Shown: in pieces, positions 12,802 to 61,522 of the stretch
How the letters are laid out: every line of letters begins with the position of its first letter
Numbering within the stretch: position 1 is the first letter of the stretch
DNA from: Candidatus Woesearchaeota archaeon
GTDB lineage: Archaea; Nanobdellota; Nanobdellia; Woesearchaeales; GW2011-AR4
Direction of reading: 5' to 3'
Length of the DNA: 64,000 bases
Assembly (NCBI GenBank): GCA_018303655.1
Contig: JAGVXT010000012.1
Span: forward strand, 17,996 to 81,995
Notes under the pieces: generated by a model
What the model was told of the DNA's origin: nothing
The model's input: the letters and a program-made list of their open reading frames with translations, nothing else
Databases searched by the model: none
Made by a program: the position numbers and the translations under genes

Positions 12802-12967
12802 ACTTCCACCCCTTTATTATAAATTGTAAACTGCAACTGCTATTTATACCTTTCTTTTTGTCGTCAGCAAATTCAACATGACTTACACTATTAAAATGAT
12901 TCTTTGTCTTATCTTTGCACAAATTGAGAATACCCAGCCATGTTACGCTGTTTGTTACTTTATGTCA

Positions 12968-13216
12968 AAAACCACCCATCAGTCGAATGCGAGTGAGCAA
13001 ATCATTCGCTCACAATTCACTGGGTGGCATGTTTAGGTGCTATCCCATTCAGATGGTTTTGGACATCACAAAAACCATAGGTTTTTGGAATCCCGAAAAT
13101 CTGTGATTTTCGCGACTACAAAATTCCACTTATTAATGGATGATTTTTGAGCACATCCAAATTCCATGCAATATGCTTGTAACACATAAACCACTTATGA
13201 AACATAAGTGGAATTT
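12968..13216. other. hairpin-dense intergenic island (candidate structured ncRNA)
   Basis: Hairpins seen: CCACCCA...TGGGTGG enclosing GTGAGC..GCTCAC; ATGGTTTTG..CAAAAACCAT; CAAAAACCATAGGTTTTTG; CGAAAATCtgtGATTTTCG; CCACTTATgaaacATAAGTGG, plus a distal AATTCCACTTAT partner. Confidence 0.4.
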
Positions 13217-33090: not shown

Positions 33091-33147
33091 TTTAGAATTT
33101 TATTTAATTTCGATTAAGATTTTTATTTAGTTTTTTGTTATAATTAA

Positions 33148-33341
33148 ATCCGTCGCTTCGCGACAATATCCAGGCTCGCCGGTGAGATGCGAAAGCTCGA
33201 GATGCACGCGAGTTTGAGATGCTTGCGAGAGTGGAATGCGAAAGCTTGCTTTCGCTCGCTTATCTTACAAGCAAGCTCGCGTTCAACTCGTGCTCGCAAA
33301 CAACTCTTTCGCTCGCTTATCTACCTGCTCGCCTATGCATC
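33148..33341. other. GC-rich hairpin-dense island (candidate structured RNA or repeat)
   Basis: Hairpins GTCGCttcGCGAC and AGCTTGCTT...AAGCAAGCT. The words GAGATGCGA, GAGATGCAC, GAGATGCTTGCGAG and CGCTCGCTTATCT recur (the last twice). Three overlapping plus-strand ORFs here look spurious. Confidence 0.4.
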
Positions 33342-33441
33342 AAAAGCGGTTTACTATCGAAAATGCAAAGCATTTTCGGAAGTCCCAAAAACCAAAGGTT
33401 TTTGATACTTTCAACACCTTGCTGTCAAAAGTCGCTCTCGT
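33342..33441 (+). repeat. bipartite dispersed element, copy 2 (long insert)
   Basis: AAAAGCGGTTTACTA...[72-nt insert with hairpins CGAAAATGCaaaGCATTTTCG and CAAAAACCaaaGGTTTTTG]...AAAAGTCGCTCTCGT followed by a T-run. Confidence 0.7.
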
Positions 33442-46722: not shown

Positions 46723-47049
46723 TTATTCTTTTATTTTGTATTCTGCATCAAGATATTCGGCATTTTTGTGCTTTTTATGAACTTTTTTAAATTTAATCAT
46801 TGTAACCAAAAATATCAGCAAAGAAATTAGTATAACAAATAAGATAACTGCCAATGACAGCAGCATCAAGCCACCGGCAATTATTAAGTACCATTTTGAT
46901 ACCAAAGCCAGCAAAGTCCATTCTTTCTCTTTAGAATGCAGATATATAAAATATACGGCTATAAGGCTGAAAATCGTGCCCACTCCAAAGTTGAACGCGA
47001 GCCCGCGAGCGTTCTCGCGCGCATCTCCCCATCTTTTTTGAATGATCAT
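46723..47049 (-). CDS. small membrane protein
   Basis: 108 aa with 2-3 TM segments. Confidence 0.45.
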   Translation of the reverse strand: MIIQKRWGDARENARGLAFNFGVGTIFSLIAVYFIYLHSKEKEWTLLALVSKWYLIIAGGLMLLSLAVILFVILISLLIFLVTMIKFKKVHKKHKNAEYLDAEYKIKE

Positions 47050-48316: not shown

Positions 48317-48323
48317 ATTGTAG

Positions 48324-48412
48324 TGAGCCTGGGGGGATTCGAACCCCCACTGCCCGGTTTCATCTTATTGCAAAGCCGAAGCCGAGTCTGCTATCCATTA
48401 CAGCACAGGCCC
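48324..48412 (-). tRNA. tRNA-Arg(UCG) with a 17-nt canonical intron
   Basis: Acceptor GGGCCTG/CAGGCTC, anticodon stem CTCGG/CCGGG, loop CTTCGG|A (anticodon 48377-48379), intron 48359-48375, T-arm GGGGG-TTCGAAT-CCCCC. Confidence 0.8.
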
Positions 48413-48508
48413 AGTGTCTTGTGAGCGAGTAGCTCACTCGCATTTCACTATTATTTTCTTATTGATTATTAAAAGTTTCTAAAGAAATACCGCAAGAATA
48501 CAGAATAA

Positions 48509-49954
48509 TTATCCGCCAACGCTTGCCCTGTTGGAGTTGCTTATGATTACTTTGTCTCCAATTTTGGTTCTTGCGCTTGCAGCAGGCAGGTTAAGCTCTC
48601 CCAATATCGGAAGCCTTGACTTCATCCTGTAGGATAATACCCTTTCATCGCCTGCTTCCAAAGTTTCTATGTTCCATCTTATCATAATCCCTTTTTTAGG
48701 GTGCTTCAATATAGCATGGGGTTGCATGGAGCCGATTGAAAGCTCCTTTTCAACATGTGCGATATGGGGAAGATTGTCCACAACCTCAATATCTGTTATT
48801 TGATTTTGGCTCCTGTTCTTGACCCTTACAACAATCTTTGCCTCTGAAATTCCGCCATAGCTCATTCCAACATTTCCAATTGCTTTGCTCACTACGATGG
48901 GGCTTCTAAACAGGAAGTACAAAACTATTGCAGCGATTACCAATAAAATAAGAACAACAATTGGCCTGTAATTTTCACTTGTGCGGATAGAAATTGTCTT
49001 GTCCGGGCCGACTTCCACCTCCCATACCAAATAATTCCTGCCATTTTCCTTTACTACCTCGGCTCTTGGAGAAGCTGTCATGAACAGATTTTTGATTGGG
49101 GTTGTTTCAACTTTTACGATGCCCTTGTAATCGGGGTTATTCGACATAACCTTTATTCCTTTTCTTATTTTTAAAAAAGACTGCTCTTTTGGAAGGTCTT
49201 CCTGAACCGCATACTCAATAACCTCAAATTCCTTTACAATGGGGCTGACAATCAGCCTTTCATCCTTGAATATGGCAATAACCAGCCTGTCTTTTTGAGG
49301 CACAGTCATATCATCCAGTTTTTTTGTTACCTCAATTGTCCTGTCTTTTTTTGGGCCAAGTTGCACATATAACTCGTCCTTAAAGAGGTTGCTTTCAATC
49401 TTTATTGTGAGATTTGGGTAGTCCAAAACATTTTGGTTGTTCAGCACAATTGTTATTGTAAAATCCCCCCTAGGGTCAATCTTCTCAGGAGAAATGCTTG
49501 TGCTGGTCAGAACTGTTGGTATGTAGCCCCCTATCAAAGGCTCTGTTGATTTTATTCCAACTGTAATTGGCACTTTTTGCTCCTGGCCTGTGCTCTCAAG
49601 AACAATGCCCATATCAAGAGTATATGTGTCAACAGAGGTGATATACAAAGGGTCAACAAAAAGCTTTATTGATGATGTGCTTTGTGCAGGCACTTTTAAG
49701 GTGATGGGATTCTGCAATGGCTTGGTATACATGTCCCAAAACGGGTAGCCTGCCTTTTTTATCAGGTATTCCTCGTCTGTATCAAGATTGTTTTGGACAT
49801 CTATGTCAAATTCCGCAACTTCATCCACTACAATCTTGTCTGTTATAGGTGTGACTTTCACATCAAAAGATGCGGCAAATGCGATATTTACCAATACAAG
49901 GAGGACAGTTGCAAGAATGAAGAATTTGCCCATTTTTCCCGTTAAGCGCGTCAT
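48509..49954 (-). CDS. surface or membrane protein with a late TM segment
   Basis: 481 aa. Signal-like N-terminus, beta-rich ectodomain, TM at about aa 330-350 (PIVVLILLVIAAIVLYFLF). Confidence 0.55.
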   Translation of the reverse strand: MTRLTGKMGKFFILATVLLVLVNIAFAASFDVKVTPITDKIVVDEVAEFDIDVQNNLDTDEEYLIKKAGYPFWDMYTKPLQNPITLKVPAQSTSSIKLFVDPLYITSVDTYTLDMGIVLESTGQEQKVPITVGIKSTEPLIGGYIPTVLTSTSISPEKIDPRGDFTITIVLNNQNVLDYPNLTIKIESNLFKDELYVQLGPKKDRTIEVTKKLDDMTVPQKDRLVIAIFKDERLIVSPIVKEFEVIEYAVQEDLPKEQSFLKIRKGIKVMSNNPDYKGIVKVETTPIKNLFMTASPRAEVVKENGRNYLVWEVEVGPDKTISIRTSENYRPIVVLILLVIAAIVLYFLFRSPIVVSKAIGNVGMSYGGISEAKIVVRVKNRSQNQITDIEVVDNLPHIAHVEKELSIGSMQPHAILKHPKKGIMIRWNIETLEAGDERVLSYRMKSRLPILGELNLPAASARTKIGDKVIISNSNRASVGG

Positions 49955-49989
49955 TTTTTACGAGATTTTTTATTCAATTACTTATATTG

Positions 49990-50150
49990 CCAACCACAAC
50001 AAAACCTATTTATTTTTGTGGTCGGCAAGAGTCAGTTGTGAGCGAGTTCGCAGTGAGTTGCGAGAGCTCGCCTCTCGCTCGCTCATCTCCCAGCTCACTC
50101 GCATGTCACTCGACAACAAACAATTTGTAATATCTAATTACTTTGTTGTT
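49990..50150. other. GC-rich hairpin-dense island in a divergent intergenic region (candidate ncRNA)
   Basis: Hairpins GCCAACCACAA...TTGTGGTCGGC, GAGCGAG...CTCGCTC, the GCGAGAGCTCGC palindrome and GACAACAAA...TTTGTTGTT. It contains GCTCACTCGCATGTCACT, which is shared with 48437-48455 and with the tRNA-Ser T-loop intron. Confidence 0.4.
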
Positions 50151-50224
50151 CGGCTATATATAAATCTTTCCTAACAATTTTGGGCATAGAAACCTTTATA
50201 TATTATTATATTCAGGAAAAATTC

Positions 50225-55620: not shown

Positions 55621-55787
55621 GGGCCTGTGGTCTAGCGGCTATGACATCGCCTCGACATTTGCTTTAATTCAGCTATCGGCACGGCGAAGGTCACCAGTTC
55701 GAAATGTCGAGTCCCGAGATGCGAGGTTCGCGAGAAACTCGCTCACCAGCTACCGAGACTCGCAAACCGAAAATCTGGTCGGGCCCA
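55621..55787 (+). tRNA. tRNA-Val(GAC)-like with two introns (37/38 and 59/60) and an unusual C33
   Basis: Acceptor GGGCCTG/CGGGCCC, anticodon stem TCGCC/GGCGA, loop T-C-GAC-A|C, intron 1 at 55658-55681 (24 nt, good BHB). T-arm ACCAG-TTCGAA|intron 2 at 55704-55773 (70 nt)|T-CTGGT, with TTCG pairing to CGAA and 3-nt bulges. Confidence 0.65.
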
Positions 55788-58389: not shown

Positions 58390-58575
58390 TACGCCGCGAC
58401 TCGGACTTGCATGTGGCAAACAGTGACATGCGAGGCTCACTAGGGACTCGCTCGCCATTTACCCGCTTGCCACAATTTGAACCGAGAAACCCTTGCGGGA
58501 ACCAGCTTTCGCATTGCGGGGAATTCCCATGAATTCCAGCTCAAGGCTAGCGCAGTGCCAGATTGTGCCATCGCG
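58390..58575 (-). tRNA. tRNA-Ser(UGA) with two introns (37/38 and 59/60)
   Basis: Acceptor GCCGCGA/TCGCGGC plus G73, anticodon stem CTAGC/GCTGG, loop CTTGAG|A (anticodon 58539-58541), intron 1 at 58506-58537 (32 nt). Long variable arm (CCCgcaaGGG). T-arm CTCGG-TTCAAA|intron 2 at 58404-58473 (70 nt)|T-CCGAG. Confidence 0.75.
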
Positions 58576-58690
58576 GCAATAAGAAAAAGTTTTACTGGTT
58601 AATTTAAATTTATTGATTAATTTTTAATCAGAAAGCTAATCCCGTCAAAAACCTCTGGTTTTTGGGGTGCTCGAAAATCTTTAATTTTTG

Positions 58691-58766
58691 ACACTTTGCA
58701 GGGTTTGAACCCAGACGTCCTTGCGGACGGGAGGTTCTCAGTCTCCTGTATGCCACTTTGAGCGGC
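58691..58766 (-). tRNA. tRNA-Leu(GAG)-like sequence without a matching 5' acceptor strand
   Basis: On the minus strand: GCC-GCTCAAAGT-GGC, GGAGA-CTGAGAA-CCTCC, variable arm CGTCCgcaaGGACG, T-arm CTGGG-TTCAAAC-CCCTG, 3' CAAAGTG. No CACTTTG 5' strand, and 4 extra nt sit before the anticodon stem. A TTTATAAA box lies about 40 nt upstream. Confidence 0.3.
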
Positions 58767-61045: not shown

Positions 61046-61522
61046 TTGCTATCTTTTGACGAGAAAGGAAAGACTGCAATCAAAATCTATGGAGGGCAAA
61101 AGTATGTCTTTCGAGGGTACTATCACATACCTTATGGGCAGAAAATTAAAGGAATTTGTGATTTATTCATGGCCCGCAACATTCATACAGGCAAAAGGCA
61201 TTACGCCTTTTATGACTGGAAAAACAGCTTTATTGTCACTGAATTTCTTGAAAAGTTGTTGGAGATTTATCCAAACATGGACATTTACATAATTTGGGAC
61301 GGATGGAGCGCTCATAGAAGCGAGCATACAAAGATGTTTTTGGATTTACATCCGAGAATAAAGATACTGCCTTTGCCAACAAAGGCATCATGGCTAAATC
61401 ATGTTGAAAGGGATTTTAGCAGCATACAAAGATTTCTGCTGAATAATAGTAATTTTGAAAGTGTGGTTGAATTTATCCAAGCAACAGAAATATTTATTGA
61501 AAAGGAGCTATGTTCTAGTTGA
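61046..61522 (+). CDS. IS630 transposase, DDE_3 catalytic part (orfB, -1 frame)
   Basis: The frame is open from 60995 (KKLAIEQAIAYLPQNSVLLSFDEKG...). It carries LSFDEKG, IIWDGWSAHRS and LPTKASWLNHVERDF. Confidence 0.75.
   Translation: MLSFDEKGKTAIKIYGGQKYVFRGYYHIPYGQKIKGICDLFMARNIHTGKRHYAFYDWKNSFIVTEFLEKLLEIYPNMDIYIIWDGWSAHRSEHTKMFLDLHPRIKILPLPTKASWLNHVERDFSSIQRFLLNNSNFESVVEFIQATEIFIEKELCSS

What the first reader, a model, noticed from the sequence alone, without database searches (positions are those of the whole stretch)
49990..50150. GC-rich hairpin islands share motifs with the long tRNA T-loop introns (possible mobile intron-derived family)
- **Seen, shared words:** short GC-rich words recur in both orientations. 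GCTCACTCGCAT[G/T]TCACT is at 50084-50103 and 48437-48455. GAGCCTCGCATGTCACT is inside the tRNA-Ser intron (minus strand, about 58418-58436).
- **Seen, more shared words:** GAGATGCGAG is inside the tRNA-Val intron (about 55716-55725), with repeated GAGATGC variants at 33185-33222. GCGAGTGAGC and CGCTCAC are at 12990-13015.
- **Seen, composition:** these islands are the only GC-rich patches in otherwise AT-rich spacers, and they are full of stems.
- **Inference:** they are either one family of structured elements that can reside as BHB introns or as free intergenic copies, or several unrelated ncRNAs sharing low-complexity words.
Basis: partly seen in the sequence, partly recalled or inferred. 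Interest (0 to 1): 0.6.

Follow-up and report, generated by a model that had tools for sequence, protein, structure and literature searches.

The report
Mobile GC-hairpin repeat in Woesearchaeota
The GC-rich islands are copies of one short palindromic DNA repeat that has spread through the genomes of Woesearchaeota (tiny DPANN archaea), landing between genes, inside its own copies, in a tRNA leader, in a protein-coding gene and in the loops of existing tRNA introns; this is why some of those introns are unusually long.

Summary
The shared words belong to one sequence family, called E here. It is 37-49 nt long, with consensus AGTGAC-AT-GCGAG...CTCGC-TCACAA-GTCACT and a variable or nested apex.

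- **Window copies:** covariance models find E at 12981-13021, 33230-33271, 48413-48449, 50030-50110 (with a nested copy at 50052-50094), 55710-55754 and 58422-58463.
- **Distribution:** the exact 18-mer occurs in about 32 AT-rich Woesearchaeota-type assemblies. In groundwater metagenomes it reaches 18-41 times single-copy depth.
- **Presence or absence:** orthologous sites in relatives lack E in:
  - the promoter at 50 kb;
  - the tRNA-Arg leader;
  - the T-loop introns of tRNA-Ser and tRNA-Val;
  - a 108-aa gene, where a related 36-nt hairpin sits in frame.
- **Relation to introns:** the short bulge-helix-bulge (BHB) introns exist without E in relatives. E is therefore a passenger in intron loops, not an intron and not intron-derived.
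- **What is missing:** no orientation bias, no target-site duplication and no linked transposase gene were found.

Best reading: a REP- or RPE-like non-autonomous mobile palindromic repeat. The enzyme that moves it is unknown. A 2024 census already flagged a Woesearchaeal genome as MITE-dense, but this family and its link to introns appear undescribed.

The parts
50030..50110 (-). Element E, subfamily 1, with a 46-nt apical insert. Read on the minus strand: AGTGACATGCGAGTGAGC ... GAACTCGCTCACAACTGACT.
   Evidence: R1 scores 38.4 bits, E 7e-9. R2 scores 42 bits. Metagenome contigs diverge exactly at 50030 and 50110/50111, and summed depth there is 18-41 times that of the flanks.
50052..50094 (+). 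Nested inner element, subfamily 2 (AGTGAGTTGCGAGAGCTCGCC...CTCGCTCATCTCC), inverted inside the outer copy.
   Evidence: R1 scores 24.5 bits, E 1e-4. It is 95% identical to nested copies in L032 and 92% to a free-standing copy in L096. Other metagenome contigs fill the same outer loop differently (table 5c).
49983..50154 (.). About 172-nt composite insertion in the divergent promoter. An AT-rich hairpin (49988-50029) and a second AT-rich hairpin (50111-50154) flank E. The ends are imperfect inverted repeats (GCCGAACAACAA / GCCAACCACAAC), with a possible TATAT/ATATA duplication.
   Evidence: Relatives L080, L099, L082, L089 and L093 read ...gatttatatataagtaattgaat... without interruption. Folding gives three hairpins, z-score -6.8. 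Repeats are listed.
48413..48449 (-). Element E, minimal 37-nt form, abutting G1 of tRNA-Arg(UCG) in the 5' leader.
   Evidence: R1 scores 46.3 bits, E 3e-11. The orthologous tRNA-Arg leaders in L080 and L099 lack it.
48323..48412 (-). Host tRNA gene (Arg, UCG) with a 17-nt anticodon-loop intron.
   Evidence: Rfam tRNA model scores 49 bits.
12981..13021 (+). Element E, subfamily 1, at the tip of the stem CCACCC/GGGTGG in a 450-nt spacer made of several hairpin repeats.
   Evidence: R1 scores 39.4 bits, E 4e-9. Sequence.
33175..33330 (+). Nested island several copies deep, built of subfamily-4 and related units (core copy 33230-33271). It sits in the loop of a larger dispersed repeat spanning 33147-33350.
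   Evidence: R2 scores 35.5 bits, but this copy was in the seed. R1 gives only 13.8 bits, E 0.15. blastn matches L063, L082, L081, L044, L033/L042 and L012 at E 1e-9 to 1e-4. The same unit is nested in a subfamily-1 copy in L044.
55710..55754 (+). Element E variant, in sense orientation, in the apical loop of the 70-nt T-loop intron (55704-55773) of tRNA-Val(GAC).
   Evidence: It is 30/30 identical to the free copy at L046:1990-2036. R2 scores 25.4 bits, E 3e-4, and this copy was not in the seed. The short intron without E exists in L063 (32 nt) and L131 (29 nt), and 12 relatives have no T-loop intron. The spliced tRNA folds as a cloverleaf.
58422..58463 (+). Element E, subfamily 3, antisense to the gene, in the apical loop of the 70-nt T-loop intron (58404-58473) of tRNA-Ser(UGA), which lies on the minus strand.
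   Evidence: R1 scores 22.6 bits, E 4e-4. The ortholog in L114 has the same intron stem with ATGCT in place of the 42-nt element. The spliced tRNA folds as a cloverleaf.
46993..47028 (-). 36-nt in-frame insertion (GDARENARGLAF) of a related GC hairpin (subfamily 5) in the 108-aa membrane-protein gene 46723-47049. Membership of the family is probable, not certain.
   Evidence: The insertion is absent from the orthologs in L099 and L080. By eye it is about 29/33 identical to the apical insert of the E copies in L003 and L028. R2 scores only 17.4 bits, E 0.046. No BHB motif would excise it.

Best explanation
The islands are copies of one non-autonomous palindromic DNA repeat (E) that is, or recently was, mobile in Woesearchaeota.

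**Architecture.** E is 37-49 nt long. It has a terminal helix (AGTGAC/GTCACT), an asymmetric internal loop (AT on the 5' strand, TCACAA on the 3' strand) and a conserved helix (GCGAG/CTCGC). Its apex is variable and often holds another copy.

**Where it lies (shown).** E occupies places where an extra self-folding hairpin does no harm:
- tips of AT-rich intergenic hairpins;
- loops of other small repeats;
- its own apex;
- a tRNA 5' leader;
- the apical loops of pre-existing bulge-helix-bulge tRNA introns. This turns introns of about 30 nt into 70-nt introns without touching the splice motif;
- once, as a related hairpin, in frame within a coding sequence.

**How it moves (inferred).** Copies are made at the DNA level by an enzyme acting in trans that recognises the folded or duplex element. 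This would resemble bacterial REP/REPIN elements moved by RAYT transposases, or IS200/IS605-type single-strand transposition, which also leaves no target duplication. The tendency to sit at hairpin tips could reflect targeting of extruded hairpins or survival of harmless insertions. I cannot tell which.
For: **One family.**
- R1 and R2 hits in the window.
- The exact 18-mer occurs in 65 AT-rich loci from about 32 Woesearchaeota-type assemblies. The 14 hits in GC-rich bacterial genomes fall within my estimate of about 35 expected by chance.
- In four loci chosen for the 18-mer, a second copy that lacks it also scores over 35 bits with R1 (L044, L013, L032, L046).
- In loci chosen through neighbouring proteins rather than the element, there are about 10 copies in roughly 190 kb.

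**High copy number.** Summed contig depth is 1201 against 28-48 in the neighbouring bins, 662 against 38 upstream, 110 against about 8, and 73 against about 4.5. Contigs break exactly at the element ends.

**Insertions at orthologous sites.**
- Promoter of the 481-aa gene.
- tRNA-Arg leader.
- tRNA-Ser intron loop.
- tRNA-Val intron loop.
- L118 intron against L111/L130/L131.
- 36-nt in-frame insertion in a coding sequence.

**Nesting and modularity.** Copies nest in either orientation. Alternative fillings of the same outer copy occur in the metagenome.

**No sign of an RNA-level signal.** Between co-directional genes there are 10 sense and 16 antisense copies. In the tRNA introns I read by eye, both orientations occur.

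**Stems.** In 17 of 62 copies the flank stems exceed the 95th percentile of a mismatched-flank control. These stems usually start exactly at the element ends.

**Pairing.** The GCGAG/CTCGC helix is paired in 98% of cells. Paired variants GCGAA/TTCGC and GCGTG/CACGC occur in subfamilies.
Against: - No enzyme that could move E was found. No gene family recurs near the 62 copies, and the exact 18-mer is not in viral contigs.
- No target-site duplication and no defined target sequence were found for E itself.
- Whether a site gained or lost E rests on parsimony among few relatives for the tRNA-Arg and tRNA-Ser cases.
- Very strong conservation of the arms across about 32 species would also fit purifying selection for a cellular function.
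- The models are biased. R1's 5' arm was fixed by the search pattern, and R2's seed includes five window copies.
- Covariation is modest, and part of it comes from antisense hits.
- No RNA data exist.
Confidence: 0.7

Rival explanations
1. E is a functional RNA or DNA module kept by selection and recruited repeatedly. Examples would be a protein-binding hairpin that stabilises transcripts, helps termination, or binds L7Ae or another structural protein. On this view it is not a selfish mobile element.
For: - The arms are almost invariant across about 32 species-level genomes.
- It forms a stable hairpin, with z-score -6 to -7 for the locus.
- It often caps hairpins with T-runs that look like two-way terminators.
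- It lies in transcribed places, namely a tRNA leader and tRNA introns.
Against: - There is no orientation bias relative to transcription, and both orientations occur inside introns.
- The element is dispensable at every orthologous site examined.
- Nesting several copies deep and an in-frame insertion in a coding sequence are hard to explain by function.
- No Rfam family matches it, even at E up to 1.
- By eye, the internal loop does not fit a canonical K-turn. This is my own reading and was not tested.
Confidence: 0.17
2. E is itself a mobile bulge-helix-bulge intron, or derives from one. It can sit in tRNA genes as an intron or lie free between genes, and it spreads at the RNA level by reverse splicing.
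For: - Family members lie inside two 70-nt T-loop introns in the window and inside introns of several other tRNAs.
- tRNA introns in this clade come and go between close relatives.
- A different intron module is shared between tRNA-Val and tRNA-Ser genes, so mobile introns probably exist here.
Against: - The splice motif and basal stem of the host introns exist without E in relatives.
- E lies in the intron's apical loop or at an internal junction, never at a splice site.
- BHB motifs around free copies are no more frequent than with shuffled flanks: 20 strict hits against a mean of 14.7 and a maximum of 20. This test is weak.
- E occurs antisense in introns, in a promoter, in a tRNA leader and in a coding sequence.
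- I did not look for a reverse transcriptase.
Confidence: 0.06
3. The shared words are chance matches of GC-rich, low-complexity sequence.
For: The 7-mer ATGCGAG alone is not enriched: 9 observed against 4.8 expected. GCGAG and CTCGC pentamers total 62 against about 52 expected.
Against: - The 18-mer and 13-mer shuffle tests exclude chance.
- Covariance-model E-values reach 1e-11.
- Sixty-five exact 18-mer hits are confined to one archaeal clade.
- The element is 18-41 times over-represented in metagenomes.
Confidence: 0.01

Closest known systems
Bacterial REP / BIME / REPIN elements moved by RAYT (Y1 HUH) transposases
   Same: - Short (20-50 nt), GC-rich imperfect palindromes.
- Tens to hundreds of copies, mostly between genes.
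- Combined into mosaics with other repeats.
- No coding capacity and no target duplication.
- Persist across related species.
- Hairpin pairing is maintained.
   Different: - The host is archaeal (DPANN).
- The head sequence is AGTGAC rather than the GTAG or CGTC tag.
- Copies nest inside each other's apex rather than lying in alternating tandem.
- No RAYT-like gene has been found, and none could be searched for here.
- Copies also lie in tRNA introns, a tRNA leader and a coding sequence.
Rickettsia palindromic elements (RPE)
   Same: Small palindromic repeats in a reduced genome of a host-dependent microbe. They insert in frame into protein-coding genes and into RNA genes without destroying them. 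The window has one 36-nt in-frame case and several copies inside tRNA genes.
   Different: From my own knowledge, RPEs are longer (about 100-150 bp) and are mostly found within genes. E is 37-49 nt and mostly intergenic. There is no sequence relationship.
Prokaryotic MITEs, including the high MITE density reported for a Woesearchaeal genome (PMC11602168)
   Same: Non-autonomous, terminally inverted-repeat elements in intergenic DNA. That census lists a 'Woesearchaea' genome at 105 MITEs per Mb. The 172-nt carrier at 49983-50154 looks like a classical MITE, with inverted ends and a possible 5-nt duplication.
   Different: - E itself is shorter than typical MITEs and shows no target duplication and no parent insertion sequence.
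- The census does not describe this family, its nesting or its presence in tRNA introns, as far as the text I searched shows.
Transposing tRNA introns of Thermoproteales (Fujishima 2010, reviewed in PMC4090602; used as a positive control in bioRxiv 10.64898/2026.10.13.758758)
   Same: Related sequences are found in introns of different tRNA genes and at non-canonical positions. Introns are gained and lost between close relatives.
   Different: In Thermoproteales the whole intron is the repeated unit. Here the repeated unit is a passenger hairpin that also lies outside tRNA genes. The intron proper exists without it.

Membership tests
REP/REPIN-RAYT | Short (about 20-40 nt), GC-rich imperfect palindrome able to form a hairpin | tested here: met
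   Units are 37-49 nt. The GCGAG/CTCGC helix is paired in 98% of cells and the terminal helix in 72%.
REP/REPIN-RAYT | High copy number, mainly extragenic | tested here: inconclusive
   - Eight or nine copies lie in the 64-kb window.
- Density is about 1 per 19 kb in loci not chosen for the element.
- Metagenome depth is 18-41 times single copy.
REP/REPIN-RAYT | Conserved GTAG or CGTC head tetranucleotide | tested here: not met
   The head is AGTGAC or AGTGAA in nearly all copies.
REP/REPIN-RAYT | A single-copy RAYT (Y1 transposase) gene flanked by the repeats | not testable with these tools
   No recurrent gene family lies within 2.5 kb of the 62 copies.
Archaeal bulge-helix-bulge intron | Two 3-nt bulges separated by a 4-bp helix at the boundaries of the unit | tested here: not met
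   - In the host introns the motif lies at the intron ends, 6-19 nt outside E.
- Around free copies, BHB-like motifs are no more frequent than with shuffled flanks.
- That scan is weak, having missed 2 of 4 known introns.
Archaeal bulge-helix-bulge intron | Removing the unit restores a functional RNA | tested here: not met
   Removing the whole 70-nt introns restores cloverleaf tRNAs. Orthologs carry the intron without E. E is therefore neither necessary nor sufficient for an intron.
MITE | Terminal inverted repeats | tested here: met
   The ends AGTGAC and GTCACT are inverted repeats, as is the whole unit.
MITE | Target-site duplication | tested here: not met
   None appears at the four clean empty-site comparisons for E. 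Only the 172-nt carrier shows a possible 5-nt TATAT/ATATA duplication.
MITE | Derived from, and moved by, a recognisable insertion sequence with the same ends | not tested
No such element is in the fetched loci.
Rickettsia-type palindromic element (RPE-like behaviour) | In-frame insertion in coding sequences that leaves the reading frame open | tested here: met
   A 36-nt (12-codon) insertion at 46993-47028 is absent from two orthologs, and the frame stays open. This is one case, and its membership of the family is only probable.

The most novel reading that the evidence does not exclude
Woesearchaeota may carry an archaeal counterpart of the bacterial REPIN-RAYT system. A single domesticated enzyme acting on hairpins would maintain tens to a hundred copies of E per roughly 1-Mb genome. 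In this clade, hairpin insertion would then be a general route by which tRNA introns lengthen. Where an insert happens to complete a bulge-helix-bulge, it could also give rise to a new intron, and in-frame inserts would add peptide segments to proteins. That would offer a concrete DNA-level source for archaeal intron gain, which recent surveys leave unexplained.
Probability: 0.25. Interest if true: 0.75.

Novelty: new variant of a known kind. Interest (0 to 1): 0.52.

Why it matters
- **Annotation.** It explains a puzzling feature of this genome: 70-nt tRNA T-loop introns are a short intron plus a passenger repeat.
- **Splicing.** It suggests that the splicing machinery of these archaea tolerates large apical additions, although splicing was not observed. 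That would make introns safe landing sites.
- **Reduced genomes.** Very small, host-dependent archaeal genomes still carry an active-looking family of selfish palindromic repeats. These reshape promoters, tRNA leaders, introns and at least one protein.
- **Practical use.**
  - The element breaks metagenome assemblies.
  - It could serve as a lineage marker for this Woesearchaeal clade.
  - It gives a testable handle on how archaeal introns grow and perhaps arise.

Tried and rejected
- **Rfam.** Searches at gathering threshold and at E up to 1 gave only tRNAs plus one sub-threshold tmRNA match at 61368-61498; nothing matched at the islands.
- **Split-tRNA leader or K-turn/L7Ae site.** I considered E as either of these. 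No tRNA half is adjacent. By eye the internal loop lacks the tandem G-A/A-G pairs and the 3-nt bulge. I did not pursue this further.
- **Solving multi-intron tRNAs by brute force.** Deleting intervals and running ARAGORN gave ambiguous answers. Manual and orthology-based comparison replaced it.
- **BHB scanner around free copies.** Strict hits numbered 20 against a shuffled mean of 14.7 and maximum of 20. The scanner missed 2 of 4 known introns, so it gives weak negative evidence only.
- **Guilt by association for a transposase.** No gene cluster appeared in more than 4 loci.
- **Viral contigs.** No hits.
- **Strain-level polymorphism.** Identical-protein contigs from three Rifle samples all carry the insertion.
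- **RNA runs.** None hold the locus.
- **The AT-rich flanking hairpins as a repeat family.** They have no relatives in the fetched loci. The only hint of copies without E is a few loose ends in the metagenome.

Full report
**1. What is at the locus**

The window has 38% G+C. By its relatives it comes from a Woesearchaeota (DPANN) archaeon from groundwater.

The flagged stretch lies in the 271-nt divergent spacer between a 481-aa gene (48509-49954, minus strand) and three tandem paralogs that start at about 50225. It folds into three consecutive hairpins: AT-rich, long GC-rich, AT-rich. The folding energy is -61 kcal/mol against -36 for shuffles, z-score -6.8.

**2. The observation**

- The short words alone are not remarkable. 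ATGCGAG occurs 9 times against 4.8 expected. GCGAG/CTCGC occur 62 times against about 52, although they are strongly clustered.
- The longer words are far beyond chance. The 18-mer AGTGACATGCGAGTGAGC with up to 3 mismatches occurs 3 times against 0.02 expected. The 13-mer with up to 2 mismatches occurs 5 times against 0.63 expected.

**3. One family, found well beyond this genome**

An exact scan of 596 Gb of species-representative genomes for AGTGAMATGCGAGTGAGC returned 79 loci.
- Sixty-five are AT-rich contigs from about 32 assemblies. These are labelled Woesearchaeota or Nanoarchaeota, or carry apparently wrong bin labels such as 'uncultured Methanosarcinales'. Several genomes hold 4-9 hits each.
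- The other 14 are in GC-rich bacteria. My estimate of the chance expectation for the whole collection is about 35 hits.

Reading the contexts gives a unit I call E: AGTGAC-ATGCGAGTGAGC-(apex)-GAACTCGCTCAC-AA-GTCACT.

Two covariance models were built.
- **R1** was built only from other genomes. In the window it finds:
  - 48411-48451 (46 bits);
  - 12979-13023 (39 bits);
  - 50031-50109 (38 bits, with a 39-nt apical insert);
  - a nested inverted copy at 50050-50094 (24.5 bits);
  - 58420-58465 (22.6 bits, E 4e-4).
- **R2** was built from 25 diverse members, five of them from the window. It adds the tRNA-Val intron at 55710-55754 (25.4 bits, E 3e-4). That copy was not in the seed.

Independent support comes from blastn. 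The tRNA-Val intron is 30/30 identical to a free-standing copy in L046 that starts with the canonical AGTGACATGCGAG. The 33-kb island matches copies in L063, L082, L081, L044, L033/L042 and L012.

Subfamilies differ in the apex and in the 3' internal-loop strand but share the plan shown. The GCGAG/CTCGC helix is paired in 98% of cells and the terminal helix in 72%. Subfamilies carry the paired variants GCGAA/TTCGC and GCGTG/CACGC. The covariation evidence is modest, and antisense hits in the alignment inflate part of it.

**4. Copy number**

I laid Logan contigs of four groundwater and soil metagenomes on the locus.

| Run | Summed depth over 50025-50095 | Neighbouring bins |
|---|---|---|
| X4 | 1201 | 28 and 48 |
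| X7 | 662 | 38 upstream (downstream bin 2.25) |
| X8 | 110 | 5.7 and 10.2 |
| X9 | 73 | 3.7 and 5.4 |

- Contigs break inside E.
- Unmatched continuations begin exactly at 50030 and at 50110/50111. These positions are therefore the ends of the repeated unit.
- The same outer copy is found with other apical fillings: a simple loop, or a different nested hairpin.
- In loci fetched through neighbouring proteins rather than through the element, R2 finds about 10 copies in roughly 190 kb. The window holds eight or nine.
- Earlier notes of this scan describe the same arms (GCGAGU/ACUCGC, GUGAGC/GCUCAC) at four places in another window of this genome. I did not check those.

Together these suggest tens to about a hundred copies per genome.

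**5. Presence or absence at orthologous sites**

*(a) Promoter at 50 kb.* L080 and L099 (86-87% protein identity), and also L082, L089 and L093, read ...ggaaagatttatatataagtaattgaataaaa... without interruption.
- The window has about 172 nt inserted there (49983-50154).
- The insert consists of two AT-rich hairpins with imperfectly inverted ends, plus E, plus the nested copy.
- A TATAT/ATATA duplication is possible.
- L081 and L096 carry different hairpin insertions, each containing an E relative, at other points of the same promoter region.

*(b) tRNA-Arg leader.* L080 and L099 have about 20 nt between the TATA-like box and G1. The window has a 37-nt E abutting G1.

*(c) tRNA-Ser(UGA) T-loop intron.* L114 has GGCAAAC-ATGCT-CGCTTGCC. 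The window has GGCAAAC-[42-nt E]-CGCTTGCC, inside the same intron stem GTGGCAA/TTGCCAC. Other relatives have a 14-17-nt T-loop intron or none.

*(d) tRNA-Val(GAC) T-loop intron.*
- L063 has ATGTCGAGT-TCAC-GAGACTCGCAAGCAGAAAA (32 nt).
- L131 has a 29-nt version.
- Twelve relatives have no T-loop intron.
- The window has the same ends with E in the loop, giving 70 nt.

*(e) L118.* This locus has a subfamily-1 copy, antisense, inside a tRNA-Ser T-arm intron. That intron lacks the copy in L111, L130 and L131.

*(f) Coding sequence.* A 36-nt GC hairpin related to the apical insert of the L003 and L028 copies sits in frame in the 108-aa membrane-protein gene, adding GDARENARGLAF at 46993-47028. It is absent from L099 and L080. 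No BHB motif would remove it.

Splicing out the introns proposed in earlier notes gives clean cloverleaf tRNA-Val(GAC) and tRNA-Ser(UGA).

**6. What this excludes and what it suggests**

E is not an intron.
- The splice motif and basal stem belong to the host intron and exist without E.
- E lies in the apical loop in the two window introns, and at an internal junction in L118.
- It occurs in both orientations within introns.
- BHB motifs around free copies are no more frequent than with shuffled flanks. That scan is weak.

E shows no orientation bias between co-directional genes: 10 sense against 16 antisense. This argues against an orientation-dependent RNA signal.

About 40% of copies cap a stem formed by their own flanks. 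In 17 of 62 copies the stem exceeds the 95th percentile of a mismatched-flank control, and these stems usually begin exactly at the element ends. The tRNA-Arg leader, the L118 site and the coding-sequence site are not hairpin tips, so the preference is not absolute.

No gene family recurs near the copies, the exact 18-mer is not in viral contigs, and no target duplication is seen for E itself.

The best-supported reading is a non-autonomous palindromic repeat that spreads at the DNA level.
- In behaviour it is closest to bacterial REP/REPIN elements, which are high-copy GC palindromes that form mosaics, leave no target duplication and persist across species.
- It also resembles Rickettsia palindromic elements, which insert in frame and into RNA genes.
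- The enzyme is unknown. Transposition of the hairpin as single-stranded DNA by a trans-acting protein is inferred, not shown.
- A cellular function for the hairpin cannot be excluded, given how strongly the arms are conserved.

**7. Literature**

I found no description of this family.
- REP surveys in the library concern bacteria.
- A 2024 MITE census lists a 'Woesearchaea' genome among the most MITE-dense archaeal genomes, at 105 per Mb. It does not describe this element or its link to introns in the text I searched.
- Intron transposition is known in Thermoproteales (PMC4090602).
- Multi-intron tRNA genes in DPANN are already known (PMC5829648; earlier notes).

**8. Verdict**

This is a new variant of a known kind, namely small palindromic mobile repeats, found here in DPANN archaea with an unusual habit of nesting and settling in intron loops. 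Interest is moderate. It clarifies the long T-loop introns and gives a handle on intron growth. The mechanism of movement remains open.

Noticed in passing
window 46993-47028 (gene 46723-47049, minus strand): A 36-nt GC-rich hairpin is inserted in frame, adding GDARENARGLAF after residue 7 of a 108-aa predicted membrane protein. Orthologs in L099 and L080 lack it. No BHB motif would excise it, so it is probably translated.
   Followed up: yes
window 33147-33350; also L045, L054, L018, L012, L081, L106 and others: A second dispersed repeat of about 100-200 nt has the form AATCCG-hairpin ... GCTCGGCAAAA ... TTTTGCCTCGCCTATRCAT ... AAAAGCGGATTAC. It occurs with E in its central loop (L045, L054, window) or without it (L081, L106).
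   Followed up: partly
L080, L099 and window 48323-48412; L110-L135: Intron content of orthologous tRNA genes differs between close relatives.
- tRNA-Arg has only an anticodon-loop intron in the window, only a T-loop intron in L080, and both in L099.
- tRNA-Ser ranges from one anticodon-loop intron and no T-loop intron (L115) to four introns (L131).
- tRNA-Val carries D-loop, anticodon-loop and T-loop introns in varying combinations.
   Followed up: partly
L111, L130, L131, L118 (tRNA-Ser T-arm intron); L111, L131 (tRNA-Val D-loop intron); L115, L123: An intron module, AACCTTTTT-GCAAGC-AAAAAGCTTGACCAAAA...GGTT, is shared between introns of different tRNA genes at different positions. This looks like whole-intron transposition of the Thermoproteales kind and is separate from E.
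   Followed up: no
L032:3165-4356: Two composite E copies in inverted orientation flank about 1 kb. That stretch holds a 168-aa ORF which, by eye, has a PIN-domain-like start (VIFDTNVY...).
   Followed up: no
window 12964-13110, 33355-33410, 58640-58700; L061, L039, L068: Further families of AT-rich hairpins recur in spacers: ATGTCAAAAACCACC...GGTGGTTTTTGACAT, CGAAAAT...ATTTTCG and CAAAAACC...GGTTTTTG. The spacers are therefore mosaics of several small repeats.
   Followed up: no
window 49983-50154: The carrier of E at the focal locus looks like a classical MITE. It has imperfectly inverted ends (GCCGAACAACAA / GCCAACCACAAC) and a possible 5-nt TATAT/ATATA duplication, and it separates the TATA box from the 481-aa gene. 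A few metagenome contigs join its two hairpins through ATAGC with no E between them.
   Followed up: partly
record titles: Many AT-rich contigs carrying the element are labelled 'uncultured Methanosarcinales' and one 'Gammaproteobacteria'. Their gene content and 31-38% G+C match Woesearchaeota, so the bin labels are probably wrong.
   Followed up: no
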